A DNA stretch of 63,273 bases, the filler included, from Folioceros fuciformis (Eukaryota), in assembly GCA_049999805.1 (NCBI GenBank). It is 8 parts of 8 records of this genome, joined end to end, with 100 filler letters (N's around TTAATTAATTAA, not from the genome) between each part and the next. Parts side by side here need not be neighbours in the genome. Positions count along the whole stretch, not along the records: positions 18,916 to 28,682 come from JBNGIO010004663.1; 7 more parts are not named here. One strand, given 5' to 3'. Positions 13,913 to 58,263 of the stretch are shown in pieces (the first letter of the stretch is position 1; every line of letters starts with the position of its first letter). The notes under the pieces were generated by a model. That model did no database searches, was not told the origin of the DNA, and saw only the letters and a program-made list of their open reading frames with translations. The position numbers and the translations under genes are program-made.

Positions 13913-14655
13913 TACCCCTTGGACTCCGCTCTTCCTTTCGTCTATGATCGGTTCCTTGAGCAGACTAGCACCTCTTGTGCATTGCTCCTGCCAATTTGCC
14001 TGCGCACACGCCTAGGACACAGAGCCGGGCATCACGCCACAAACAATCGGTACTTACGACGCAATGCCAGCAATCCAGTGGGAACCGACCTCAGGTTGAA
14101 TTCGGCGCAATGGTGTGATGAACTCACTCCTGCACAGCGAAACAGAAACCGGTCCGCTCGGTGCTTTGATGTGCAGAACCCATGAAGCCAGGTAGCCTCA
14201 CCTGCCAATCATGAAAAAGAAAAAACCGAGGATCCAAGTGCGGTCACCAATGCGATGCTTGGGCCATCCCACGCAAGCCGCCTTGGTTGCAATCACTGGA
14301 GGGGGGTACCGGAGTGAATGGCAGGGCGTCTTCAAATTTTTGAAGAGCGCGAAAACTATGTAGACGGCATATACACGTATGTACACTTTTTGCCTGCATC
14401 CTCTGTACGGACAATCGTCTATCATGTTTACGGGGTTGGCCATCCTTGACTCAACATCAGAATGGATGGAGTCGGGGGGAGCTGATCGCGGATGGCATCG
14501 AAGCACGGAGAGCGGGTCCTCTTGGAGCGCGAGCTGGTGAATGAATGGGGTAGGGAGACTCGTCTCATTGCTTCAAGAGGGGGAGCTCCGGTGACGGATT
14601 CTGGTTCCTAGAACATGTGCCGGCCACTGGAGTTTGAATTGCGCTCGCATGCAGC

Positions 14656-16632
14656 ATGGTCCCAAACCCGGCGTTTCCAAAAAGCTCTGTCTGGGGAGTT
14701 CGGGTAGAAGCATGGCTGAAGAGTGGAGCATCGGAAGCGCAGCTGGCTGTTGCGGGTATCGAAAGGGGCAGTCGCTTGGCAGATTATGGTAGCCTTGGCA
14801 GCCGTGCAGGATACGGCGTGGGGGTGACGGCTGAGACTGTGAGGAGTCTGTGTGAGCAGGGGCAGGTCAATGAGGGTGTTGAGGCTTTAGGACTTCTGGT
14901 GGAGACCGGGTGTTCTATTTCCAAGTACCTAGTATACGCTCTGCTGAAGAAATGTGTTGTGACGAAGAATCTTGTTGTTGGTCGGCGACTCCATGCTTTT
15001 TCGGTGAAGAAGGGTTATGAGTTGGACACTTTGCTTTGCAATCACTTAGTGCGGATGTATGCGGCTCATGGCAGGTTGCAAGAGGCTGCGGATGTGTTTT
15101 CCGTGGTTCCACAGCCAGATGCCTTCATGTGGTCTTCTATCATCTCTGCGCATGTTAAGCACGGACAAGAAAAGGAGGCCGTGCGCTTGTATCAGACAAT
15201 GTGCAGGTCAGGTGTGAGGCCGGATGGGCATGTGTTTGTAGCAGTGCTTCAAGCTTGTGCAAGAGGTGCGGACCTGGAATCTGGGCAACAGGTGCATGCT
15301 GATATAATGGCGAATGGCGTTGAGCCAGATTTGTTTGTGAATAGCTCTTTGGTGGACATGTATGCGAAGTGTGGCAACTTGGAAGACGCTCAGAGAGTGT
15401 TTGACGGGATTGGGCAGAAAGATGTGGTTACGTGGAGCACGATGATAGCAGGATATTCCCAGCAGGGTATGGGGCAGGAAGCCCTCCGTCTCTACAGGGC
15501 TTTGCAAGAGGAAGGCAAGGTTGCACTTGATTCTGTCACGTTTTTGTCACTCCTGCAGGCATGTGCGAGTGTGGGTAGCCCGGCTTTGGAGGAAGGGAGG
15601 CGGCTTCATGCAAAAATCAAGGAACGAGGATTGGAAGCAGATGTGTTTGTGGCCAACAGTTTGGTGAACATGTATGCAAGGTGTGGCAGCCTAGAGGATG
15701 CTCAAGGCGTGTTTGAAGGACTGCCTCGAAAAGATGTGGGGACGTGGAATGCCATGATATCAGGGCATTCACAGAATGGAATGGGGCAGCAAGCCCTGGC
15801 TCTTTTTAGGGCTATGCAAGAGGAAGGCGTCGTTTCTCCCAATTCCTTGACATTTGTGTGCATCCTTCAGGCATGTGCAAGTGTGGCAGCTTTGGATGTG
15901 GGAAGGCAGCTTCATGCTCAGATTAAAGAACAAGGGCTTGAAGCTGACGTGCTCGTAGCCTGCAGCTTGATAAACACATACGGAAAGTGTGGCAGCATGG
16001 TTGATGCACGGCAGGTGTTTGATGCACTGCCCCAAAGAGATGTGCACACCTGGAGTGCACTGATTGCAGGATACAGCCGAGAAGGAGACAGTGAAAAGGT
16101 CTTTGACCTACTTGACAGAATGAGAGAGGACGGCATACAGCCCGACGGCGTTACGTTCCTCAGTGTACTAACAGTCTGCAGTCACACCGGTTTGGTGAAT
16201 AAGGGGCAATACTACTTTGAGGCTATGACCACATGCTATGGCATCTTTCCCACAGCGGACCACTACACATGCATGGTGGATCTCCTCGGTCGTGCAGGAG
16301 AACTGGATGCCGCACTAGCTGTAACAAAGACAATGCCTGTACCTCCCACCGCTGCAGTTTGGCGCACACTGTTGGGTGCTTGCCGAAAGTGGAGCAATGT
16401 GGGCTTGGGACGTCTGTCGTTCGAAGAAGCAGTAAAGCTGGACAGTAAAGATGCCGCCCCTTATGTCTTGATGTTTAACATCTATACTGGTGCCCTCATG
16501 TGGGAGGAGGCACAGGAGGTGTACCACAGGAGAATGAGAGTTAGCGCGCGGAAGCCCCCAGGTCATAGCTGGTGGGCAGACATGGACGGACTGGTGCACG
16601 GCTTTTTAGTGGGAGACCATAGGTTTGCCTAG
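14656..16632 (+). CDS. PLS-class pentatricopeptide repeat protein with E/E+ domain and no DYW domain (organellar RNA-editing specificity factor)
   Basis: Intronless 658 aa. P-L-S triplets (LVDMYAKCG..EDA..VFD....DVVTW..MI.GY), E domain HYTCMVDLLGRAG...VWRTLLGACR, PG box KPPGHSW, ends HGFLVGDHRFA*. Confidence 0.93.
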   Translation: MVPNPAFPKSSVWGVRVEAWLKSGASEAQLAVAGIERGSRLADYGSLGSRAGYGVGVTAETVRSLCEQGQVNEGVEALGLLVETGCSISKYLVYALLKKCVVTKNLVVGRRLHAFSVKKGYELDTLLCNHLVRMYAAHGRLQEAADVFSVVPQPDAFMWSSIISAHVKHGQEKEAVRLYQTMCRSGVRPDGHVFVAVLQACARGADLESGQQVHADIMANGVEPDLFVNSSLVDMYAKCGNLEDAQRVFDGIGQKDVVTWSTMIAGYSQQGMGQEALRLYRALQEEGKVALDSVTFLSLLQACASVGSPALEEGRRLHAKIKERGLEADVFVANSLVNMYARCGSLEDAQGVFEGLPRKDVGTWNAMISGHSQNGMGQQALALFRAMQEEGVVSPNSLTFVCILQACASVAALDVGRQLHAQIKEQGLEADVLVACSLINTYGKCGSMVDARQVFDALPQRDVHTWSALIAGYSREGDSEKVFDLLDRMREDGIQPDGVTFLSVLTVCSHTGLVNKGQYYFEAMTTCYGIFPTADHYTCMVDLLGRAGELDAALAVTKTMPVPPTAAVWRTLLGACRKWSNVGLGRLSFEEAVKLDSKDAAPYVLMFNIYTGALMWEEAQEVYHRRMRVSARKPPGHSWWADMDGLVHGFLVGDHRFA

Positions 16633-18815: not shown

Positions 18816-18859
18816 NNNNNNNNNNNNNNNNNNNNNNNNNNNNNNNNNNNNNNNNNNNN

Positions 18860-18871
18860 TTAATTAATTAA
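18860..18871. other. Artificial scaffold linker TTAATTAATTAA inside N runs (also 28727, 34566, 46975, 52953, 54409, 58208)
   Basis: Identical palindromic 12-mer with stops in all six frames, centred in seven N gaps. Confidence 0.95.
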
Positions 18872-18915
18872 NNNNNNNNNNNNNNNNNNNNNNNNNNNNN
18901 NNNNNNNNNNNNNNN

Positions 18916-19458
18916 GCGTGGCGTCGCGCTCCTCCTGCTGCTGCCGTACATCTGCTGCGGGTCCCGGGATGGCGGCCGCCACACGTCCGGGTCGTGAGGC
19001 CGCCATGCGTCGGGCTCCTCGTAGAACCCCGGACTGCTCCCGGCTGCAGGCGAGGCGGAGTGCCATGGATACTCCTCCTGCTGCACTTCGTGCACAAACT
19101 GCTCCTGCCGCGACGGGATCACCGGGGCCGGCGCAGGGTGAGAATGGAGATGAGAAAGAACCTGCTGCTGATGCTGCGGCTGCGGCTGCGGCTGCTGCTG
19201 GTGCGGCTGGGCCACGCCTTTGAGAGACTGGCGCTCAGCGTCCAGGCGGCGCACAATGCTGCACTCCTCCGCAAGCTCCTTGCGGCAGTCCATCCATCGC
19301 AGCTTCAGGTCCGGGCTGGTGACACCGCTCAGGTGCTTGTTGATCTGCGAGAGTACGCCCTCGAAGAAAATGACGGCCGTGTCGTAGCTTCCCAGCAGAG
19401 CGTATTCCCGCGCCAGCGTGAGGTGCTCCAGCAGCCCCAACGTCGAGCCTGCTGCCAT
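18916..19458 (-). CDS. KTN1: Katanin p60 catalytic subunit, N-terminal (MIT) part; truncated at a scaffold gap
   Basis: LLEHLTLAREYALLGSYDTAVIFFEGVLSQINKHL...RWMDCRKELAEE and DPDVWRPPSRD are katanin p60 N-terminal signatures. The AAA domain is not visible. Confidence 0.85.
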
Positions 19459-19845
19459 CGCCGTCTGCTTGCGCTCATGGACGGAGGAAGAATGCCAAGA
19501 ATCGATCCAGGCACCGGCGTCTCCCGCAGCCGTGCCCTTTGCCGGTTCCGTTAGACGCCAATCCAGAAGGATATCGTCAGCCTACGAGCACGCGGATGGC
19601 ATTTCGAGTCGCGTCGCGACTGTGTGCTAGTAGGTGCAGTATTGGCGTTTAGGATGTGCACTAAGCGAATCGAGACGTCTCGCAACTTGAAGTTGGTGTG
19701 AATTGCAAATCGTGAACCCTGTTGCGTAGGGCAAACAGAGGTTCGGAGGCAGCCCGAGTGGCAGGCGTCGGATTTTATGCTGGGGGCAGCACGTTAGCCG
19801 CCTCGCGTCGGAGCCTGTGGCTGAGCTTCGGGAAGGGAAAGGACC

Positions 19846-20179
19846 ATGGGGTTTATTGGAACTAGGGTGATGCAGGTGGTGTACAAGCAAACAGGAGGTT
19901 TGGTGTGGAAGCATTGGCCGATGAATCACACGCGCCGTGCCAACTCCAAGAAGCGGCACCGCCGCATCCGGCAGGTCTGTGAGCGGTTGCATGATTGGAT
20001 TGGGACAATGGATTGTACTGGATGACTTCCTTTGCGGAAACTGAGAGCAATTTTGTTCTTGTGGGGTGCAGGTTGAAGACATTCTTAGGGCTTGCGCGGA
20101 GGGTGAGCCTCCTAGTCATATCAAGAAGGAGCAAGTTCAGGCTGCGGCAGTGGAACCTACTGGGGCAACGTCGAGCTGA
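19846..20179 (+). CDS. Small 2-exon gene (19846-19974, 20072-20179), 78 aa, likely mitochondrial ribosomal protein mL60 (MRPL31-like)
   Basis: Spliced protein MGFIGTRVMQVVYKQTGGLVWKHWPMNHTRRANSKKRHRRIRQ|VEDILRACAEGEPP...SS*. The intron is GT..AG, phase 0. The GGLVWK...TRxAN.KKR..R pattern resembles plant mL60 from memory. Confidence 0.7.
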
Positions 20180-20569
20180 ATGAAGCTGATTAGAGGGAGC
20201 AACATCTCAACCCCTATTGTCCCCAAGCTGCAGACGGTTGGCAGTTGGAATGGTGGACGTGCGTATGACGTGAGGTGACGCTTGTGGAGCCACAATTCCA
20301 CCCCATATGGAGGACAAAGATTTGAGGGACATTGAAACGTTGTAACTTGGAATGTCGCCTGAGTGACCATGGCATTGGAGGGTGCTGGCGGTGACAATGC
20401 TTTGCCCGTAGTTTCTCGTCGGGCATTTGATGTATGCAGTTAATTTGTTCACCGAGGTTGAGAGCTAGGGAAAGGGACCCTGAATGCGCCTTCTGTGAGA
20501 GGGAAAACTTACAGGCGGAGGCGGAAACTAGTTTACACTGCATGAAGGATTGAGGATGATTTGCTAATA

Positions 20570-23500
20570 TTACAGTTCTAGTATGGTTTCTCCAGACCTC
20601 TCCCCCTGAAGTTGTGCACCATCTGGCGGCCTGCGAGAGTCGGCATATCGCAGCCGGAGATTGGCTGGGAGATGTGTTGCGGCCAGGTCATCCTTAGCCG
20701 CATCGCCACCCTTGAGAGATAGAGATTGCTTCCAGACCTCAGCTGCCTCGTTTCTTTGCTTTGTTCCGTGCCGGAAGAAGAAAACGATGACTGTCATATC
20801 ATCGTGATAGTCTCTTCGTTGACCTCCAGACATCTGAAGCAGCTCGCTGTATGCCACCTCGTGCTTCCTTGCTGCCTTCTGTAAAGCGTATTTAACCAGG
20901 AAACGCGCAATGTCCTGCGAGACATCCCACGAATCGTTTGGAACGAGAGAACTACGCTGGGGGCCGATTGCTTAAGAAACGTTCATCAGATAACATTGTT
21001 TACCTTTCTGCCGTGTGCCGAAACGATTTCCACAGCTTCTTCGTTGCTCACATATTCCCACAGTCCGTCAGATGCCAGGATGAGGAACTCGTCATTACCT
21101 GAAAGCATGTGAAGTGACACGGATGGCTCGGAGGACACTAACGGCGGTACAAACGGCCCCGGAACACGAAATCTGGAAAACAATGGATCTCGGTTGAATT
21201 CCAGGTGTTTCATGAACAAATCTCCAAAGCAGTGAGTCACCTGANNNNNNNNNNNNNNNNNNNNNNNNNNNNNNNNNNNNNNNNNNNNNNNNNNNNNNNN
21301 NNNNNNNNNNNNNNNNNNNNNNNNNNNNNNNNNNNNNNNNNNNNGCACTCCACTGACCTGGATTTTTCCTTTTATCCTCCAGATCCCATTCTTCTCCCAG
21401 ACCACATTCCCACCACAGCAAGCTTCATGCGCTCGACTATAAGCCTCCCTGACATCAGGCATGTTCACGTTGTCATCCTGTGACAGCTGAACGGGATATA
21501 GGCCGTCCTTCCCCCTACAACCCAGGACCGCTCTGCTATCTCCCAGGTTTGCAATGAACAAGGTCTCTCCTGTTATAATGGCTACGATGGAACAAGAGCC
21601 AACAGTGGCTAAGTGCGGAGATTTCTGAAAAGCATCTCGAACAATGTCTATAAACTGTCCCTCTGTGGTTGCAAATGCAGCCTTTATCCCTTCCACAGAC
21701 ACCTTTCCATGATTTTGCACAAAGCGACCTGCCCCACAGCCAGTAATCAATCAGGACCCACTGCTGCATCGTTGTTGTACGACAGGCTGCATCACTAGTC
21801 ATCAATCAGTCGAACAAACCAACAATGAAATAGTACACAAGTGACATACTTTTTAAATTATCGTACAGATGATCCTTCAAATATTTTGATGCTTCAGTAC
21901 CCCCATGACCGTCATGGATTCCCAGATACACACCACTGAGAGTTGCCTCCACCTTACATCACCCATTGACTACGGTCAGCAAAGACTTTCATGGCGACTA
22001 CCTCAACACTTCAAACCTGCAAAGCTTGTTTGTTTAACCTGCATATGGTCTCACCTCACCAGTGTCCTCCATGAAATAATTGGCTTCATACATTGCAAAT
22101 GAGAATTCCCCAAAAGCTGTTCGCTTTAGGGACTTGTGCCAGAGTGAGCTTTTCAAAGACCTGTCTCCTTTGCGAGGTAGCAGGACAGCTTTGATTCGAC
22201 GAAATTGTCCCACAGAAAATATCTTCCTATCTCTCACAAAATCAATACGACTCCGGCGGTCCCGGCGGAGAAACTCAGGTGTGTCCTTGTCCTCACCGCC
22301 ATGAAATGCTAAGTCCAAGCCAGCCTGCAATAACAATAACTCTGGATGAAGTCTGCGAAAATCTGAGGCAAAGCTCTCCAGCACATGCACCCTCATGGAC
22401 TGTGTCGAACATCACCTCTTCTTCCTGCCGGTCCACCCGTAAAGCATTGAAGAAGGCAAGAAGATAGAATAATACAAAACTTGATATCCCAACCCACAGA
22501 TACACTGTGAATAATCCTACTATCTGGATGCCAGGAATAGGTAATCAGGATATATTATATCATTCCACAGCCTCCCACAACGGAAACGAAACTGTCGGGA
22601 ATCTTGCCTGGACGAACAACTGGCTGAACCCACCACCATGGAACAGCCCGTAACTTTTGGGTTGCAGAATGTTGAAGGACTTGCGGATATTGTAAGGAGT
22701 GGAGAACAAGCCGACTGCCAGACCTCCCCAAGTTCCACAGAACAGGTGTACAGGAGCAGCCATAACCACGTCATCTATCTGGCACTTTATCATGACCTTG
22801 ACTCCCGCAAGATAGAAAAAACCAGATATCACACCTGCACACATCATGCCAACCAGAACAGACGTAATTACGCATGATAACAAGGTAGCAAGAGACTTAC
22901 TTTGATGCATCACCAACCCAATTTCCACCCGGACAATGAAGGGAGTAACGGAGCTCACCTATGATAGCGGCACCATATGGCTGCACGACACTGCTTGTGG
23001 CACATGCTGCTACCAATCCACCGATCACGGCATTGAACACATCCTCGGGTTTTGATTTTTTGTTGACCGTTTGGGTAAAAACGTAGACCACAAACCCCGA
23101 GAATGCTGCTGTTAACGTAGTGTTCTGAGCCACTCGTGCCAGCTCTACTGTCCAGACTACATTTTGAGCCTGTATAATGTCAATAGGACCTGTGTTGAAG
23201 CCAAAAAAGCTAACCCACAGCAACACTGTGCCTGCTGCCACCAAAGCCTGCGGGACGCATCAGCACATGTCAATGTTTGGTCAACAGCCAGAAGAGAAAG
23301 CATGCGAATCCTCCACAACCACAACGTTGTCGCTGACTGACTCAAGGGGAACAAGCATCCATACAAATTGCCAAAGGAAGGATTCAGAAAACCTAAACAC
23401 CAGTGAGATTGATTCACGAACCACGGAGTGACTTTGCATAGGTACAGGATTCCCCTCAATGTCAAATCTGCCAATTCTAGGACCCACCATCCACGCCCCT

Positions 23501-24366
23501 ACAAGTGCAGTCACTCCCCCGGTGACATGGACCACCATGGATCCCGCATTGTCTAACACGCCATCTGTACCAAGTATTCTTGCCGAGCTGTTGGCACTCA
23601 GCAGGCCCTCTTTCGACCATATTAGATGAGCTGTTATTGGGTAGATGAAGGAACTCAAGAAGAAGCTGGTACACGTGTCCCAATGTGTCAGAAACTTAAA
23701 CACCCACAAGACTGGCTTTGGAAGGCTGCGAAGAAGAGCAAATTGCAAGCCTCGGAGCTAGTTGAAACCCCAGGAAAGGAACTCGCCACGAGAGGAGAAC
23801 CCGTACCTGTAGATCAGATAAGCACGCAGTTGCGTCCGTTCAGCAATAGATCCAGCAATGATATTCGCACACGTTGTTGCGAAAGCCAGCTCAAAGAAAA
23901 ACTTGAGCTGCTCACGATCACCGGAAAACGCAGGCTTGCCGTCTGAATACTTCCAACCTACAACCTCGTTCCCGTACCCAAACCCGATGGCATACCCAAA
24001 CAGCCAGAACGAAATGACACAAATGCACATATCCAGCACATTCTTGACCATAATGTTGCGGGTGTTCTTCACACGCACAGTGCCAGCTTCTATCAAAGAG
24101 AATCCGACCTGCAGCAAAATCCAACCACAACCCGCAATGTTAACAACACAACAAGACCACGACACTCTCAGCTCAATCCAGCAGCACAGCGACCATACCT
24201 GCATAAGGAAGACGAAAAAAGCCGCCTGGAGTTTCCACAGGTCAGCAGAGATCCTCCCATTCTCAGAATTACTCCTCGCCAGAAAATCCAGTACGGACGA
24301 AATGTTGGCAATTTGGCTCTGAATTTCTCCAATTACAGAAGGATCCAGCTCCTCCCCCGGATCCAT
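20570..24366 (-). CDS. AMT1-family ammonium transporter fused in frame to a clade-D PP2C protein phosphatase; 11 exons, 887 aa
   Basis: Exons 24366-24199, 24108-23807, 23665-23422, 23247-22959, 22834-22608, 22523-22416, 22324-22055, 21952-21850, 21728-21358, 21240-21004, 20914-20570 total 2664 nt with consistent phases. AMT motifs: FLMQVGFSLIEAGTVRVKN, GSIAERT, DNAGSMVVH, GPRIGRF, FGFN, DD..AAPVH, LRV..EEEAGLD..HGG. PP2C motifs: GEFSFA..ANYFMED, DGHGG, ANLGDSRAVLG, WRIKGKIQ, LASDGLWE, HDDMTVIV. Confidence 0.85.
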
Positions 24367-25825
24367 ACCTCGATTCTCACACCCCAAACCTGGACTCTGG
24401 CAGCCAATCCTTGACGTGCACCTTCGTCAGACCTCCCTGTACGGACTCGGCCGCGTTTGTTCCCACACAGCTCATCCCCCTCAATTTCAGGCCAGGAGCC
24501 TCCATTCCACTCACTCCCAACCCGCAACCCCAGACTCCGTCGCCCCCTCGCCTCCGATGCCGACGGTCTCGCGATCGGCCCTCCCGAGCTCCAATTCTTC
24601 ACCTCAAATTGCGGGTCCGACCACCTCNNNNNNNNNNNNNNNNNNNNNNNNNNNNNNNNNNNNNNNNNNNNNNNNNNNNNNNNNNNNNNNNNNNNNNNNN
24701 NNNNNNNNNNNNNNNNNNNNNNNNNNNGGCCTATACGATCCCAGCCAAGGCCCAGCCTCCAACGACCTCCTCGGCGGCAGCAAGGCCTGCTGCCGCCCTC
24801 TGCTGCTCTGCGACCCCCAGAACTAGCACTTCCCATGAAAGGACTGCCAAAGTTAGTGGAGACGTAGCCTTGGTGTAATCGACTCGATTCGACTCGACTC
24901 CAATTCGAGGGTAGCATGAGACGAGGTCTTACCGGAGACGTCTCAAGGCCGGGGATCGGAATTCGGGCCTTTGACGTACACGATGTCGGCTGCTGCGCCT
25001 CGGAGATGGCGGAGCCAGGGGAGTTGCCAGGTACTGTATGTACTTTCGGGACGCGGGACGCGGGTGCATCCAATCGTTGGCGTGTTGTTATCGGGCTCGG
25101 GGCCTGACGCGACTGTCCGGGGAAGCAGTGACAGTGCGGGGAAGGGATGTGTGAAATAGACTGCCATCACGGGAAATTGCTGCACGAAATTTAAACACAT
25201 GCTACCCACTCAAGACTAGCCATTTGATTAGGAATCTGATAAGGAATTAATAACTGGCCAAAAAGGACAAGCACTTACACCAAAGGGGCGGGCAAGTTGC
25301 AACCGCAAACTTCGGTGAAGCTGCTCACGTCACCTGGCCCAAAGAGAGCAGCTTCAATGCTTCAGTGATTCGGTGAGGAGGCAACACATGGCACCTGTTG
25401 TACAAGTACCGAATGTGTCACAAAGCTCAAGTCACACTAGGTTCAAATGGGGAAGCTAGAAAACCACGATATCCTTAAACGTGACTCTAAACTCGAACTG
25501 TACAGACCGTACTACAACATGAAGCTCACATGCATCTCGGGCAGCGCTGTCCGACCCCCATGCACCGCAACCATGAGCTTGTCGAGAAGTGGTGTCGTCG
25601 TCGTGACCCTACGGCAGCTGGGTTGCATGGAGGGAGGCCAGTCCGATTCTTGGTCCTGTTGTGGAATAGAGGAGGAGGTCTTCAACACTGAGCACTGGGG
25701 TAGAAAGAGAGAACGCGGTTGGAGAGGCAATGACCCAGGGCCCGAGTGCCCAACCATGCATCTTGAGGTGGCGAGGTGTTCGGTGCGACGTCACATCCGT
25801 TCTCTTGCTGCCGTTGTAGTGAGAG

Positions 25826-27160
25826 CTAGCCGCTCCTCCCTCTTTCATGGTCATAGGGGGGATCATATATTTGGGAGGGATCGTCATCCCACACATCATC
25901 TAAGCCAATGACGTGGTGCCCTTCTTCCTCGTCCGAGGAGGATAGCCCAGATCCCATCCAAGACTTGCGATAGCCCTGATTCACTCTCCTCTCCAGTATA
26001 GACTGTGGCACAGGAGTAGCTTCCAGTAGCTCAACTCCTGACATGTGGTGGCCATAGAACTCGCCTTCATCCATTATCACGGCCGCTTTTCGCCTTAAGA
26101 ACATCGCTGTTCCTCCAAGCAAGATACAAAATCCCCAACACAGCACTTCGTAGCACCAAAATAAAACATAGGAGCAGTTTGTCTGCAACATGAGAATAGA
26201 CGAGCCTAGGAAAAGGGACATGACAGCGATGGCAGTAGTGAAGCAGATATTCAGCGTTGCCAGGCAGCGTACACCTCCTGCAAACGCAATCGCACATCAG
26301 TTGTGAGCAGTTAGCGTGTTGGAACCACCATACAGCTCGGACAGGTCCAAATCAGGTGAAGCAGGGTGGAAAAGGCTAGTACGCAATATGCAAAGCCAGA
26401 AAAGAGCTACTACCTCTCCTTGATGCACAGCAGTTGTTCTCCACAACCTTTAAACACCCGTGTCTCTCAGGTGCAGTGTAAGCCACCGCAATGCCTGAAC
26501 ACCACCCAAACAAGCCTCAGTTCTTGAAACAACCTCAAGCCACCACAATTCAACATCCACAAACTTTGGCAGCCCCGAAAAAGCATGGACAACCATACAC
26601 ACAACAACACAGATACATCCGGCAAAGCACCACGTCTTCCCATCCTGACATCCATTCCGGCGCAAGCTAGGGTTTCTCAAAACGTCCCAACTCCATCAAC
26701 CACAATACACGCTAACATCAGGCACGCAAGCACTCCAAAAATCGCAGACTTCAGAGCAGCGGGACACAATCGACCACTTGCCTGCCATCAAGTACATGGT
26801 AGCCACGGCACAGACGACAGCAGTCGGAAGGAACACGACAAGCCAAAAATACTGCGCTGCCTCCTCTTCCGTGTAAGCATACGCACTCGTCATTGTCTCC
26901 TGGCTCTGTGGCCGCATCTCCGCCAACGGGATCTGATCCAAGCGTTTTTTCTGACAAAATGGATACTCCTCTCCCGTCACCGCAAACACGATATGAATCA
27001 TAACTGCCACCGCAATCAACACGCAAATCCAAATCACCGTCACGACCACCATGAGCAGCGGTCGTGTAAGCTTCCCCCACACCTTCTCCTCATCCCTAAG
27101 ATTTTCGTAATCATCCCTGGACATGAACGCCTGGAGCAAAGCAGTCTGCGCCAAATTCAT
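25826..27160 (-). CDS. Conserved plant multi-pass membrane protein of unknown function; 3 exons (27160-26782, 26494-26414, 26277-25826), 303 aa
   Basis: LLQAFM...YENLRDEEK.WGKL.RPL; AYTAPERHGCLKVVENNCCASRRGGVRCL; LFWCYE...FLRRKAAVI.DEG...WMGS.LSSSDEE. Hydrophobic segments, in-phase splicing, GC-AG first intron. Confidence 0.8.
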
Positions 27161-28782
27161 CTTTTCCGATCCAATCACGCAGCACACGCAACGCAAATTG
27201 CAACCCGCAGCCCCTGCCTAGAGACTGTAAAAGCCTGCCCTCTGTCCCTGCCCTCTGTCCCTGCCCTAAGTCCCACAGCAAGGTAGCACCACAGTGCCAA
27301 CGCAGCAAGCGCTGCGAAAATCCTTCCCCAAGACCCCGTGCCTTCGTCTCGCCGATCAGCATGCCACTCCTCGCTCCCAGCCAAATCCCAAACCGCTGTC
27401 TGTGCCAGCTCCGCACCTTCAGACCGTGCCGGCAAACACATCCATCCTTGCCGGCGCAGGATTACCGTCAGACACGCGTCGAAGACTCTGCGTTGCTAGG
27501 CTGTTGCTCATCTGAGAGAGGGCTCGTGTAGTAACAGCCGTAACATAAAATGCAGAACTACGACCTTCACGCATGCCTACATTTATAGACGAGGACTTTC
27601 AGCATTTCAAAAATACAAATTTCTCCATCGTGGAGACCCATGAACTTTCGTGGTAAGCCCATCACCCCAGGATCCATTATCTCGTTTTTGACACACAAAA
27701 ACTAGTCAATTTCACTTTTATAAATCTATTTATAATATAAATAATAGTAATATATTATTCATAATTCAAACTGCCTTTTTTGGAAAATAGAGAGACACTT
27801 AATTAACCTGGGAAATAGAGAGACACTTAATTAACCTAGGATGAGGTATTTTTTATAATTGAAAAAGATATGGAAAGTTCCATCTACTTCCAAAATTGGA
27901 AGAACAACCCCGCAAGGTCAAAGGAGGAACAACCCTGCAAAGCCTAAGGTTGAAAGGTACTAGCTCCTTCGAATATCATTTTAAAAAACTATTTATTATT
28001 CCCGAAATCATGATTTAGAATTCCAAAAAGGCATACCTACCACTTGTGCTAAAGAAGTTGCTTGACTTACGCTTGTTGCTATTTTAAAAACTGCATTGGC
28101 CATTAATGATTGTAAAGCAATGAGTAGGCGTTGTCGAAAAAAACAAGGCCACCACGGAGCAAAGAGGGGAAATATCATTCTTATTACTTTGATAAACCTT
28201 GGCGCACCATTTTTACTACTTTGATAAACCTTGGCGCACTCCTTGATAAACCTTGAAAAGTTTTTTCCATAAACTCATAAGTCTTAAGAGCAAGGGGGAT
28301 AAAAGTATGCCATCTTGTANNNNNNNNNNACTCATAAGTCTTAAGAGCAAGGGGGATAAAAGTATGCCATCTTGTAAGGGAGATTTGGCACTTGCACAAC
28401 CCTTCGCTGCCCAACGGATTGATGATATTTGCTTGCAAATTGATTTCCTAGTGGGATCCGTAACAACCAAATCAACAACACAAACCTATTCCCCTTAGTG
28501 AAAAAAAAGTCAGCTCTAAATGAAACTCTGCTATGCAGGGTATATGAACGTTCATTATATGGAAGAAAACCATACTTCCTAGCATTTAAGAACATGACAT
28601 CCCAACTGCATCATGGGTGGCAATGGGAGCACTATGCTAGATAGGACCCTGTATTGACAATGACAACCTCACAACATGGGACNNNNNNNNNNNNNNNNNN
28701 NNNNNNNNNNNNNNNNNNNNNNNNNNTTAATTAATTAANNNNNNNNNNNNNNNNNNNNNNNNNNNNNNNNNNNNNNNNNNNN

Positions 28783-34521: not shown

Positions 34522-34621
34522 NNNNNNNNNNNNNNNNNNNNNNNNNNNNNNNNNNNNNNNNNNNNTTAATTAATTAANNNNNNNNNNNNNNNNNNNNNNN
34601 NNNNNNNNNNNNNNNNNNNNN

Positions 34622-46754: not shown

Positions 46755-47030
46755 GAAGAGTTTCAAATTAAGCATATTGTTCATTAACAATGAGAACAAT
46801 AATTTAGGTAGGATCTTGAATACATCTCGAAAAGGGGTGTGACCTTTTTTAGTTTGCTACTTAGCTAACTATGTAGAAAACTAAAGGCTATTTTGATAGC
46901 TCATCTACTTAAAAAGGAGGAGGAACAACCNNNNNNNNNNNNNNNNNNNNNNNNNNNNNNNNNNNNNNNNNNNNTTAATTAATTAANNNNNNNNNNNNNN
47001 NNNNNNNNNNNNNNNNNNNNNNNNNNNNNN

Positions 47031-52145: not shown

Positions 52146-53008
52146 GCAGTGTTATTAGAGTGTGTGTATATTTCTATAGGGGCTGGCCACCTCATATATA
52201 TATATATATAGATACATATAGGTATATAAATGTAGGCTTACATGTTAGAGTTGAGGGAAGTTGGATGTAAGAAGTCAAGGTCTTTTAGAGCACGACAGCT
52301 GTCATGACTTGAAAAGTCTGCTAGAATACTGTATATGTGAAAACTTTGTGTGCAGGTCATTAATGCACAAGCTGTTAAGTTATAACAAATGGATGTGCAG
52401 TAAAGAGGAGGTTGATTCATTTTTGGTCAAATAAATAGCTAATGACTGAAAGTTATCGCAAAAGAGCAGTGAAGAGTTGCGAGCTGTTTTGGTAGTTAAT
52501 TTTTATGGGCAGTGAGTTCCTTCTCCACATCCAAGGCTGGGTGTACTTTGATCTCACCTCCTCGAGTTGTTTCTCGAACGTACCCACCTGCTCCGCGCTC
52601 TTGCTCTTTAGCTCCTCAAGCTCTTTCATGCAGCAATCGTGTTCCTCTTAGAGTTGGCCGGACTCCTCTTGGACTTCGGCGGTGTGCCCAACTGCCTGTT
52701 CTTTAAGGGCAATTAATTGAAGTACCAGTTTAGTCATCCACCTCCGGAGGGCGATGTTCTCGCCCCCCCTTGTAGCTACTTGTCTGAAGGACCAGGCCAG
52801 TCCTTCGGCTACGGTCGTCACAATCCCTTGTGTAGCTTGTGACGCTCCTTCTACGGTAGCCCTAGAGTAAAACCGGTAATTGGGAGGCATTCTGGCCCTC
52901 CAGCAGGANNNNNNNNNNNNNNNNNNNNNNNNNNNNNNNNNNNNNNNNNNNNTTAATTAATTAANNNNNNNNNNNNNNNNNNNNNNNNNNNNNNNNNNNN
53001 NNNNNNNN

Positions 53009-54363: not shown

Positions 54364-54464
54364 ANNNNNNNNNNNNNNNNNNNNNNNNNNNNNNNNNNNN
54401 NNNNNNNNTTAATTAATTAANNNNNNNNNNNNNNNNNNNNNNNNNNNNNNNNNNNNNNNNNNNN

Positions 54465-58162: not shown

Positions 58163-58263
58163 ANNNNNNNNNNNNNNNNNNNNNNNNNNNNNNNNNNNNN
58201 NNNNNNNTTAATTAATTAANNNNNNNNNNNNNNNNNNNNNNNNNNNNNNNNNNNNNNNNNNNN

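What the first reader, a model, noticed from the sequence alone, without database searches (positions are those of the whole stretch)
20570..24366. Ammonium transporter (AMT1) fused to a clade-D PP2C phosphatase: candidate plant ammonium transceptor-phosphatase
Seen: the conserved AMT1 tail LRVDRQEEE|AGLDLAFHGG has no stop after it. The same exon (22324-22055) continues through a ~50-aa basic linker into the PP2C.D N-terminus (SLWHK..GEFSFAMYEANYFMED). Four more exons complete the phosphatase with its metal-binding aspartates (MED, DGHGG, ASDG, HDD). The junction lies in gap-free sequence (21345-24627), all 11 exons are in phase, and exon 7 has no in-frame ATG ahead of the PP2C core. Established: prokaryotic Amt proteins fused to signalling domains act as ammonium sensors (Ks-Amt5 histidine kinase, Sd-Amt1 diguanylate cyclase). 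Plant PP2C.D enzymes dephosphorylate plasma-membrane H+-ATPases and are inhibited by SAURs. AMT1 trimers are gated by C-tail phosphorylation. Inference: the protein may couple ammonium occupancy to dephosphorylation of H+-ATPase or partner AMT subunits. I know of no described plant AMT-PP2C fusion but cannot search. If the host has N2-fixing cyanobionts, a symbiosis role is worth testing.
Basis: partly seen in the sequence, partly recalled or inferred. Interest (0 to 1): 0.95.

Follow-up and report, generated by a model that had tools for sequence, protein, structure and literature searches.

The report
Known AMT–PP2C fusion gene (AMPC)
This is a real, expressed plant gene that joins an ammonium transporter to a protein phosphatase in one protein, but the same design was already described in 2024 in streptophyte algae and bryophytes, and its function is still untested.

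Summary
On the minus strand, 24366-20570, eleven exons encode an 887-aa protein. It has an Amt-family domain (Pfam PF00909, exons 2-5), a 49-aa basic linker and a PP2C domain (PF00481, exons 9-10). The junction lies inside one exon, 22324-22055.

Assembled contigs from four public runs (four coded organisms, four studies) each hold one spliced copy. All ten introns are removed exactly at my predicted borders.

Orthologous fusions exist in Marchantia (65%/64% identity in the two halves), Closterium, Klebsormidium, Chara and others. Both halves form single clades with similar branching.

The claim of novelty fails. A 2024 PNAS paper (PMC11665922) named this architecture AMPC (AMT-PP2C) and proposed autoregulation.

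Details I did not find in the texts I read:
- The regulatory Thr (T460 of AtAMT1;1) is Ala or Val in all 16 AMPC rows.
- The transporter half is a sister lineage to land-plant AMT1, not a member of it.
- It keeps most ligands of the bacterial ammonium-receptor N1/N2 site.

Function is untested. Verdict: new member of a known kind, moderate interest.

The parts
20570..24366 (-). Whole AMPC (AMT-PP2C.D) gene from start ATG to stop: 11 exons, 887 aa
   Evidence: Gene model. All 10 introns are confirmed by spliced contigs in runs X1, X2, X3 and X17. It is colinear with the 875-aa Marchantia protein P0001.
24199..24366 (-). Exon 1: start codon (24366-24364), N-terminal region and start of TM1; Gln56 (Q22 of Sd-Amt1) at 24201-24199
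   Evidence: An in-frame stop lies upstream, because the open frame begins at 24426.
23807..24108 (-). Exon 2: Amt domain. N1/N2-type residues Glu63 (24090-24088), Lys78, Asn79, Asp82, Asn138, Tyr153; Phe132 (F107 of AmtB)
   Evidence: PF00909 E 3.6e-21. Residue mapping.
23422..23665 (-). Exon 3: Amt domain with Trp173 (W148), Asp195 (D160), His203 (H168)
   Evidence: PF00909 E 1.5e-16.
22959..23247 (-). Exon 4: Amt domain with Phe255 (F215) and Pro259 in place of AmtB Ser219
   Evidence: PF00909 E 1.4e-15.
22608..22834 (-). Exon 5: Amt domain with His364 (H318); followed by a GC-AG intron
   Evidence: PF00909 E 5.9e-12. The joint 22523|22608 with ends CT..GC is seen in 4 of 4 runs.
22416..22523 (-). 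Exon 6: last transmembrane helix and start of the cytosolic tail (LRVDRQEEE)
   Evidence: The joint to exon 7 is seen in 4 of 4 runs.
22055..22324 (-). Exon 7, the junction exon. Amt tail AGLDLAFHGG, with Ala452 (22309-22307) where AMT1 has Thr460; 49-aa basic linker (residues 457-505); PP2C.D N-terminal block from Trp508 to the MED motif (Asp533 at 22066-22064)
   Evidence: P0001 matches 99% of this exon at 59% identity. The exon is bridged on both sides in the same contig in 4 of 4 runs.
21850..21952 (-). Exon 8: PP2C, DGHGG motif (Asp550 at 21913-21911)
21358..21728 (-). Exon 9: PP2C core, GDSRA motif (Asp634)
   Evidence: PF00481 E 1.7e-10.
21004..21240 (-). Exon 10: PP2C, SDGLWE motif (Asp752). 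The preceding intron 9 holds the 100-N gap 21245-21344.
   Evidence: PF00481 E 3.2e-15. Contig X1 joins 21238/21356 with no letters between, so no exon is hidden in the gap.
20570..20914 (-). Exon 11: end of PP2C (YHDDMT; Asp811/812), low-conservation C-terminal tail, and stop codon 20572-20570

Best explanation
The locus is a genuine, transcribed member of the AMPC (AMT-PP2C) family of streptophyte algae and bryophytes. One 887-aa polypeptide carries three parts. (a) An Amt-type ammonium transporter or receptor domain with an intact pore. By the established Amt topology its C-terminus is cytosolic. (b) A poorly conserved, basic linker of about 50 aa. (c) A complete PP2C.D-type phosphatase with its metal-binding motifs. 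Shown here: the gene structure, the single spliced mRNA, the integrity of both domains, and co-inheritance of the two halves since an early streptophyte ancestor. Inferred working model: the Amt trimer places three phosphatase domains on flexible leashes at the membrane. Ammonium occupancy of the Amt module, which keeps most of the N1/N2 receptor-site ligands including the switch Glu and its Lys partner, would change the docking of the conserved C-tail. That in turn would change the reach or activity of the phosphatase toward nearby membrane phosphoproteins. The plasma-membrane H+-ATPase C-terminus is the likeliest target class, because that is what PP2C.D enzymes act on. On this model the protein is an ammonium-responsive, membrane-tethered phosphatase, not a transporter that removes phosphate from its own Thr-460-type switch.
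For: - Gene model and open frame.
- Pfam domains: exons; ortholog P0001 (PF00909 E 1.1e-100, PF00481 E 1.1e-40).
- Single spliced mRNA: one contig per run in X1 (0 mismatches), X2, X3 and X17. Each spans all 11 exons with all 10 introns removed. The eight coding pieces listed per run show no indels in internal exons. Exon 7 differs by 7-13 of 272 letters, like the other internal exons, whereas the two pieces that include UTRs carry 37-74 differences plus indels.
- Conservation: 15 of 113 listed hits carry both domains. The AMPC Amt halves (12 rows) form one clade, SH-aLRT 100. The PP2C halves (12 rows) lie on one side of a branch, SH-aLRT 100, with similar internal order.
- Pore residues, AmtB numbering from the alignment: W148, D160, H168, F215 and H318 are kept in 12 of 12 AMPC rows, F107 in 11 of 12.
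- Sd-Amt1 N1/N2 positions Q22, F25, E29, K44, N45, D48 and Y119 are kept in 12 of 12 rows and T104 in 11 of 12 (the window has Asn). Land-plant AMT1 has Cys, Thr and Gly at E29, K44 and T104 in 13 of 13. Roles of these residues come from passages of PMC11152129.
- C-tail docking partners R69, K71 and R149 are kept in 12 of 12 rows, and R223 in 11 of 12 with Lys in one (roles from PMC13745463).
- The T460 position is Ala or Val in 16 of 16 AMPC rows and Thr in 13 of 13 AMT1.
- PP2C motifs are present in the window and in 15 of 15 AMPCs.
- The linker is 6-26% identical to the algal AMPCs (44% to Marchantia), against 49-65% in the domains, and its length varies.
- PP2C.D acts on the penultimate Thr of PM H+-ATPases, and Chara single-domain PP2C.D binds CbHA2: passages of PMC11665922.
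Against: - No experiment on any AMPC was found.
- The E29/K44 pair is not special to fused proteins. It occurs in 17 of 31 (Glu) and 25 of 31 (Lys) other, mostly unfused, relatives, so it may simply be ancestral.
- S107 is Ala in 9 of 12 AMPC rows, and T104 is Asn in the window itself.
- A disordered, variable linker suits proximity better than allosteric transmission. Bacterial receptors use structured linkers (HAMP in Sd-Amt1; PMC11152129, abstract and passages).
- Contigs cannot show transcript starts, so a PP2C-only isoform is not excluded.
- Membrane localisation, transport, phosphatase activity and substrates are all inferred.
- According to PMC11665922, Chara H+-ATPases lack the penultimate-Thr site, so the ancestral substrate may be something else.
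Confidence: 0.45

Rival explanations
1. Self-regulating transporter, the proposal of the 2024 paper. The fused PP2C removes inhibitory phosphates from the C-tail or loops of its own or neighbouring Amt subunits and so keeps the transporter active.
For: - PMC11665922 proposes this.
- AMT1 is shut by C-tail phosphorylation at T460 (PMC13745463).
- A PP2C, ABI1, activates AMT1s (PMC9516733; start of the abstract seen).
- The linker and tail hold Ser/Thr residues: T461, S471, S483, S502, S505, S506, S511.
Against: - The canonical switch residue cannot be phosphorylated: Ala or Val in 16 of 16 AMPC rows, against Thr in 13 of 13 AMT1.
- The S450 position is Arg in 11 of 12 AMPC rows, with a gap in one.
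- The linker Ser/Thr residues are not conserved across AMPCs.
- Action in trans on true AMT1 subunits would need mixed trimers between clades that are only 35-41% identical.
Confidence: 0.2
2. Passive co-localisation. The Amt half is an ordinary working transporter that serves only as a membrane anchor for PP2C.D, replacing the N-terminal leader of stand-alone PP2C.Ds. No ammonium information passes to the phosphatase.
For: - The linker is variable and poorly conserved.
- It is the lowest-confidence stretch, together with the C-terminal tail, of an overall weak AlphaFold2 model: pLDDT 25-29 for residues 440-500, model mean 53.
- The fusion point sits where stand-alone PP2C.Ds have a 30-50 aa leader. 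The conserved W..K/D..GEFS.A..QAN block was found in 108 of 120 stand-alone hits and starts at residue 31-86 in the 12 of the first 14 that were printed with it.
- Pore residues are intact.
Against: - The fusion has been kept, with both halves under constraint, from Klebsormidium and Chara to bryophytes. That is a long time for a mere anchor, since simpler anchors exist.
- The Amt C-tail is almost invariant right up to the linker.
- Receptor-type N1/N2 ligands are retained where land-plant AMT1 has lost three of them.
Confidence: 0.28
3. Artefact or mis-joined model. Two adjacent genes (an AMT and a PP2C.D) are falsely merged by assembly error, read-through or chimeric contigs, or the main product is a PP2C-only protein started from the ATG at 22396.
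For: - The window is a pseudo-scaffold with artificial joins of the form 44 N, TTAATTAATTAA, 44 N.
- One 100-N gap lies in intron 9 and another lies 261 bp upstream of the ATG.
- The runs' 'RNA' label is only the tool's guess, and contigs cannot show transcript starts.
Against: - The junction is inside one gap-free exon with a continuous frame.
- In 4 of 4 runs, from four coded organisms and four studies, one contig carries exons 6-7-8 spliced together and lacks all ten introns. That is not expected of genomic DNA.
- Independent genomes of Marchantia, Chara, Klebsormidium and Closterium encode the same architecture.
- The artificial joins lie outside the gene, at 18816-18915 and 28683-28782.
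Confidence: 0.02

Closest known systems
AMPC (AMT-PP2C) isoforms of PP2C.D in charophytes and bryophytes (PMC11665922, PNAS 2024)
   Same: N-terminal Amt domain plus C-terminal PP2C.D in one polypeptide. The window's protein groups with the Marchantia, Closterium, Mesen1, Klebsormidium and Chara fusions in both halves.
   Different: Nothing architectural; this is a further member from another land plant. The passages I read do not give the T460-to-Ala change, the N1/N2 signature or transcript evidence. The paper's SI figures and datasets could not be seen and may cover some of this.
Bacterial Amt-like ammonium receptors Sd-Amt1 (Amt-HAMP-diguanylate cyclase; PDB 8QJ3/8QJ4) and Ks-Amt5 (Amt-histidine kinase; PDB 6EU6)
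   Same: An Amt module with a C-terminal cytoplasmic signalling enzyme. They are the best PDB matches to the Amt half (E 1.4e-51 and 4.1e-49, against 5.5e-33 for AmtB). The N1/N2 ligands Q22, F25, E29, K44, N45, D48 and Y119 are shared.
   Different: The origin is separate: bacterial fused Amts form their own clade. The output is a phosphatase. The linker is variable, not a HAMP. The full Amt C-tail is kept. T104 is Asn and S107 is Ala in the window. The closer PDB similarity is not specific to AMPC, because canonical Marchantia AMT1 (P0039) also hits 6eu6 and 8qj3 best.
Bacterial Amt-SpoIIE (PF07228) fusions
   Same: Amt plus a PPM-superfamily phosphatase. Eight such proteins appeared among the 113 hits.
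   Different: They sit in the bacterial fused clade (P0090, P0095 and P0105). PMC11665922 states that they arose independently.
Land-plant AMT1 transporters (AtAMT1;1) with the T460 phospho-switch, CIPK23 and ABI1
   Same: The same broad Amt (non-Mep) lineage; the pore; N80/D83/Q57/Y155-type residues; the tail motif LR..(x)E..G.D...HGG; and the loop arginines that dock the tail.
   Different: A separate clade, 35-38% identical. The T460 position is Ala. Glu, Lys and Thr (Asn in the window) stand where AMT1 has Cys, Thr and Gly. The phosphatase is fused instead of recruited.
Stand-alone PP2C.D phosphatases (SAUR-PP2C.D-H+-ATPase module)
   Same: They are the nearest stand-alone relatives, named 'probable protein phosphatase 2C 38/42/46/48/60' by their sources, at 42-49% identity and E about 1e-85. 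They share the N-terminal block and all catalytic motifs.
   Different: The N-terminal leader is replaced by an 11-helix membrane protein. The AMPC phosphatase halves lie on their own side of the tree. SAUR regulation is unknown; PMC11665922 reports that the ancient C-type SAURs did not bind PP2C.D.

Membership tests
Amt/Mep/Rh ammonium transporter family (PF00909) | Match to the family profile over the whole domain | tested here: met
   Exons 2-5 each exceed the gathering score and cover profile positions 16-350 of 399. The ortholog P0001 covers 2-397 of 399 at E 1.1e-100.
Amt/Mep/Rh ammonium transporter family (PF00909) | Pore residues: Phe gate, twin His, vestibule Trp, Asp160 (AmtB numbering) | tested here: met
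   F132, F255, H203, H364, W173 and D195 are present. The vestibule Ser219 is Pro259, as in Marchantia only.
Land-plant AMT1 subfamily (AMT1;1-type) | Placement inside the AMT1 clade | tested here: not met
   Quick ML tree of 68 rows. The 12 AMPC rows form their own clade (SH-aLRT 100), apart from the 13-row land-plant AMT1 clade (100), which includes Marchantia's own AMT1, P0039.
Land-plant AMT1 subfamily (AMT1;1-type) | Conserved regulatory Thr (T460 of AtAMT1;1) in the C-tail | tested here: not met
   Ala452 in the window. Ala in 13 and Val in 3 of 16 AMPC rows; Thr in 13 of 13 AMT1. The numbering is anchored on P0036, which has Thr at 460, and on PMC13745463.
Amt-like ammonium receptors (AmR: Sd-Amt1, Ks-Amt5) | N1/N2 signature motif | tested here: inconclusive
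   In the window, 7 of the 9 listed ligand positions are kept (Q, F, E, K, N, D, Y). T104 is Asn and S107 is Ala. The same Glu/Lys pair is common in unfused relatives.
Amt-like ammonium receptors (AmR: Sd-Amt1, Ks-Amt5) | Cytoplasmic transducer module fused to the Amt C-terminus | tested here: met
   A PP2C domain follows the tail in the same exon and the same mRNA.
Amt-like ammonium receptors (AmR: Sd-Amt1, Ks-Amt5) | Ammonium binding changes transducer activity; little or no net transport | not testable with these tools
   Needs electrophysiology and enzyme assays.
PPM/PP2C phosphatases (PF00481) | Profile match and metal-binding acidic motifs | tested here: met
   Exons 9-10 match PF00481. 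The MED, DGHGG, GDSRA, SDGLWE and HDD motifs are present in the window and in 15 of 15 AMPCs. Which Asp binds which metal is recalled, not tested.
PP2C clade D | Closest to clade-D members; clade-D N-terminal block | tested here: inconclusive
   The best stand-alone hits are named PP2C 38/42/46/48/60; that these are clade D is recalled. The N-terminal block is shared with 108 of 120 of them. My tree held no other PP2C clades. PMC11665922 assigns AMPC to PP2C.D.
AMPC (AMT-PP2C) architecture | Amt domain N-terminal to PP2C.D in one polypeptide, in streptophyte algae or bryophytes | tested here: met
   Sister to the Marchantia AMPC in both trees.

The most novel reading that the evidence does not exclude
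AMPC proteins are eukaryotic Amt-based ammonium receptors. NH4+ entering past the twin His occupies an N1/N2-type pocket (Glu63/Lys78/Asn79/Asp82 in this protein) and re-docks the invariant, non-phosphorylatable C-tail. This switches the reach or activity of the tethered PP2C.D toward the plasma-membrane H+-ATPase or other membrane phosphoproteins. It would be a direct ammonium-to-phosphorylation signalling device in the ancestors of land plants, later lost in vascular plants when SAUR control of free PP2C.D took over.
Probability: 0.25. Interest if true: 0.75.

Novelty: new member of a known kind. Interest (0 to 1): 0.38.

Why it matters
Whether plants sense ammonium through an Amt 'transceptor' is an old open question. 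[quoted passage not shown] AMPC proteins are the one plant-lineage case in which an Amt module is hard-wired to a signalling enzyme, and an ortholog exists in the genetically tractable Marchantia (P0001). That makes the question directly testable. This window adds three things: a second land-plant member, transcript proof that the fusion is a single spliced mRNA in four related organisms, and residue-level predictions (no T460 switch; receptor-type N1/N2 ligands kept) that separate the published autoregulation idea from a sensor model. As a discovery claim it is not new, because the architecture was published in 2024.

Tried and rejected
- Complex prediction, Amt half (1-455) against PP2C half (496-820) of P0001: verdict 'no answer', score 0.00, alignment not used by the tool. 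This is no evidence either way.
- AlphaFold2 of full-length P0001 with an 11-row alignment: mean pLDDT 53.2, pTM 0.41. The model is too weak for domain arrangement. I note only that the linker and the C-terminal tail are its lowest-confidence parts. No fold search was run on it.
- The look-up of sequencing runs: no RNA holder listed; all 22 runs are labelled 'RNA?' by guess. The splicing evidence comes from laying the contigs, not from the labels.
- The genome search 'own': no genome is held for this window, so paralogues and stand-alone AMT1 or PP2C.D genes of this organism could not be counted.
- The search of earlier findings: nothing on record.
- Idea rejected: that the Amt half is specially related to the bacterial sensor Amts because 8qj3 and 6eu6 are its best PDB hits. 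The control with canonical Marchantia AMT1 gives the same ranking.
- My own first reading, from memory, that AmtB W148 was replaced by Leu was wrong. The HMMER alignment to AmtB shows W148 conserved.
- Exon-7 search of 1.84 billion representatives: 11 hits at E up to 0.001. Five span nearly the whole exon. Two of those carry both domains (P0006, P0007). Three (P0003, P0004, P0010) are fragmentary or mis-modelled, with only the PP2C profile. The six short ones match only the PP2C N-terminal block.
- Rows left out of trees. One search omitted P0018, P0021, P0023 and P0024 (near-duplicates or visibly mis-modelled) and 42 of the 52 hits P0071-P0122. One search used every third of the 120 listed stand-alone hits (40 rows). 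Both trees are 'quick' (SH-aLRT only, LG+G4). One search carries long-branch warnings.
- dN/dS among the four relatives was not computed, because only 40 of 238 differences were listed.
- Supplements of PMC11665922 (Fig. S4, S5, Dataset S3) and of PMC11152129 could not be read. They may already list this species, the tail substitution or fused-domain tallies.


Full report
**1. What is in the sequence**

Reading the minus strand of 20000-25000 and translating it in three frames gives a clean 11-exon model:

| Exon | Coordinates |
|---|---|
| 1 | 24366-24199 |
| 2 | 24108-23807 |
| 3 | 23665-23422 |
| 4 | 23247-22959 |
| 5 | 22834-22608 |
| 6 | 22523-22416 |
| 7 | 22324-22055 |
| 8 | 21952-21850 |
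| 9 | 21728-21358 |
| 10 | 21240-21004 |
| 11 | 20914-20570 |

- The CDS is 2664 nt and encodes 887 aa. Nine introns are GT-AG and intron 5 is GC-AG.
- Pfam on single exons gives PF00909 (Ammonium_transp) for exons 2-5 and PF00481 (PP2C) for exons 9-10.
- Exon 7 carries the end of the Amt C-tail (AGLDLAFHGG). It then runs through a 49-aa linker with 16 K/R and 8 D/E into the conserved PP2C N-terminal block up to the MED motif. There is no stop in between.
- The N gaps lie at 21245-21344 (inside intron 9) and 24628-24727 (upstream of the ATG).

**2. Is it one transcript?**

A search for sequencing runs returned 22 runs. All are labelled 'RNA?' only by guess. X1 held 0.64 of the sampled words, which is close to the exonic share of the queried stretch (2082 of 3283 bases).

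I laid X1, X2, X3 and X17 on 20300-24627. They come from four coded organisms and four studies.

- Each run gave one contig (4876, 4129, 3460 and 4145 nt) running from the 5' UTR to the 3' UTR.
- All ten introns are skipped at exactly the predicted borders. This includes the GC-AG intron (22523|22608, ends CT..GC on the plus strand) and the intron holding the N gap. In X1 the record positions 2231 and 2232 abut across that intron.
- X1 has no mismatch.
- The three relatives differ by 7-13 of 272 letters in the junction exon, like the other internal exons (7-21 per piece). The eight coding pieces listed per run show no indels in internal exons. The pieces that include UTRs carry 37-74 differences plus indels.
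- Contigs that lack every intron cannot be genomic DNA, so they show a spliced mRNA joining exons 6-7-8.
- Contigs cannot show transcript starts or rare isoforms, so a minor PP2C-only transcript is not excluded.
- X1 may come from the same source as the assembly. That does not weaken the splicing evidence.

**3. Relatives**

- Exon 7 alone, searched against longer proteins, found one hit: an 875-aa Marchantia polymorpha protein (P0001) carrying PF00481 and PF00909. It is 59% identical over 99% of the exon.
- The exhaustive representative search found 11 hits. Five cover nearly the whole exon at positions expected for fusions or fragments of them.
- Searching with the Amt half of P0001 gave 113 listed hits, of which 15 carry both domains: Marchantia, eight Closterium entries, one 'Mesen1' entry, two Klebsormidium nitens, one Chara braunii and two unnamed.

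Identity of the window's protein to other AMPCs:

| Compared with | Amt half | Linker | PP2C half |
|---|---|---|---|
| Marchantia P0001 | 65% | 44% | 64% |
| Algal members | 49-60% | 6-26% | 50-54% |

- Colinearity with P0001 confirms the GC-donor choice and shows that no exon is hidden in the gap.

**4. Phylogeny**

- Amt domains, quick ML tree of 68 rows. The 12 AMPC rows form one clade (SH-aLRT 100). Its order is Klebsormidium/Chara, then (window + Marchantia) sister to the Closterium/Mesen1 group.
- Land-plant AMT1 (13 rows, including Marchantia's own AMT1, P0039) is a different clade (100). Bacterial Amts fused to GGDEF, histidine-kinase or SpoIIE domains form a third (100).
- PP2C halves against 40 sampled stand-alone relatives. 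The AMPC rows lie on one side of a branch (100) with a similar internal order.
- Both halves therefore appear to have travelled together since one early streptophyte fusion.
- Both trees are short searches, and one search carries long-branch warnings.
- The nearest stand-alone phosphatases are named PP2C 38/42/46/48/60 by their sources, at 42-49% identity. That these numbers are clade D is my recollection. The 2024 paper assigns AMPC to PP2C.D.

**5. Prior description**

- A full-text search led to PMC11665922 (PNAS 2024, 'Origin and evolution of auxin-mediated acid growth').
- The passages read state that many PP2C.Ds of charophytes and bryophytes carry an N-terminal AMT domain and name the construction AMPC.
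- They also state that bacterial AMT-SpoIIE fusions arose independently and that vascular plants lack the fusion. The authors suggest the phosphatase might autoregulate the AMT.
- Two further searches found no other paper on it and no functional study.
- The paper's supplements, which hold the species table and the trees, could not be read.

**6. Residue-level reading**

AmtB numbering was fixed from the HMMER alignment of P0001 to chain 2nmr.

- W148, D160, H168, F215 and H318 are kept in 12 of 12 AMPC rows and F107 in 11 of 12. W212 is Phe in all 12. S219 is Pro only in the window and Marchantia.
- The C-tail LRV.R..EE.GLD.AFHGG is nearly invariant up to the linker.
- The residue at the AtAMT1;1 T460 position is Ala in 13 and Val in 3 of 16 AMPC rows, against Thr in 13 of 13 land-plant AMT1. 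The numbering is anchored on P0036. The role of T460 comes from PMC13745463.
- The loop residues that dock the tail in AtAMT1;1 (R69, K71, R149) are kept in all 12 rows, and R223 in 11 with Lys in one.
- For the ammonium-receptor pocket of Sd-Amt1 (roles from PMC11152129), Q22, F25, E29, K44, N45, D48 and Y119 are kept in 12 of 12 AMPC rows. T104 is kept in 11 of 12 (Asn138 in the window). S107 is Ala in 9 of 12.
- Land-plant AMT1 has Cys, Thr and Gly at E29, K44 and T104 in 13 of 13.
- The Glu/Lys pair also occurs in 17 and 25 of 31 other, mostly unfused, relatives. It is probably ancestral and not a mark of fusion.
- The higher PDB similarity to 8qj3 and 6eu6 than to AmtB is shared by canonical AMT1, so it says nothing special.
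- All five PP2C motifs are present in the window and in 15 of 15 AMPCs.
- The fusion point matches the place where stand-alone PP2C.Ds have a short N-terminal leader before their conserved block.

**7. How it most likely works**

Shown: one mRNA, one ORF, two intact domains, and long co-inheritance.

Established for the family: the Amt C-terminus is cytosolic and Amts are trimers. The protein should therefore hold three phosphatase domains on flexible leashes of about 50 aa under the membrane.

The missing Thr-460-type acceptor argues against the simplest form of the published autoregulation idea. The intact pore, the invariant tail and the retained N1/N2 ligands fit an ammonium-responsive module.

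My preferred model, at about 0.45, is an ammonium-responsive membrane-tethered PP2C.D acting on neighbouring phosphoproteins. H+-ATPases are the likeliest target class (PP2C.D function as summarised in PMC11665922).

Rivals:
- passive tethering without coupling (0.28);
- cis or trans autoregulation of Amt subunits (0.20);
- artefact or separate products (0.02).

The variable linker and the ancestral nature of the Glu/Lys pair count against my model. A docking prediction gave no answer and the structure model was weak (see Tried and rejected).

**8. Verdict**

This is a new member of a known kind (AMPC). It has moderate interest because the family is uncharacterised and offers a direct test of ammonium sensing by an Amt module in the plant lineage.

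Noticed in passing
window 18816-18915, 28683-28782, 34522-34621, 46931-47030, 52909-53008, 54365-54464, 58164-58263: Seven identical spacers of 44 N, TTAATTAATTAA (stops in all six frames), 44 N. They look like artificial joins between contigs. If so, order and adjacency across them are not evidence of true linkage. The AMPC gene lies wholly within the piece 18916-28682.
   Followed up: partly
window 14638-16632 (+): Intron-less 664-aa open frame with many PPR repeats and an E motif (PF13041 E 9.4e-64; PF20431 E 3.2e-07). It is a PLS/E-type pentatricopeptide protein of the kind linked to organellar RNA editing in land plants.
   Followed up: partly
window 18919-19581 (-): Open frame with a katanin p60 MIT domain (PF21126, E 1.6e-21), about 1 kb downstream of the AMPC stop on the same strand. 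The frame runs into the artificial spacer at 18816-18915.
   Followed up: partly
window below 20300 (X1 contig record positions 1-1381): The X1 contig extends 1381 nt beyond 20300 on the 3' side. That is far enough to reach the katanin gene if it is colinear with the genome. It could be a long 3' UTR, overlapping transcripts or read-through. The relatives' contigs diverge or end near 20310-20456.
   Followed up: no
window 23187-23185 (Pro259) and 23865-23863 (Asn138): Two lineage-specific changes in the Amt half. The vestibule Ser (AmtB S219) is Pro in the window and Marchantia only. The N1/N2 ligand Thr (Sd-Amt1 T104) is Asn in the window only, among 12 AMPC rows.
   Followed up: partly
proteins P0003, P0004: Two database gene models (586 and 1003 aa) contain repeated copies of the Amt-tail segment (…GLDVAFHGGEDE…) before a PP2C domain. 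P0004 also has a long low-complexity repeat. They are probably mis-assembled or mis-predicted AMPC loci in an alga.
   Followed up: no
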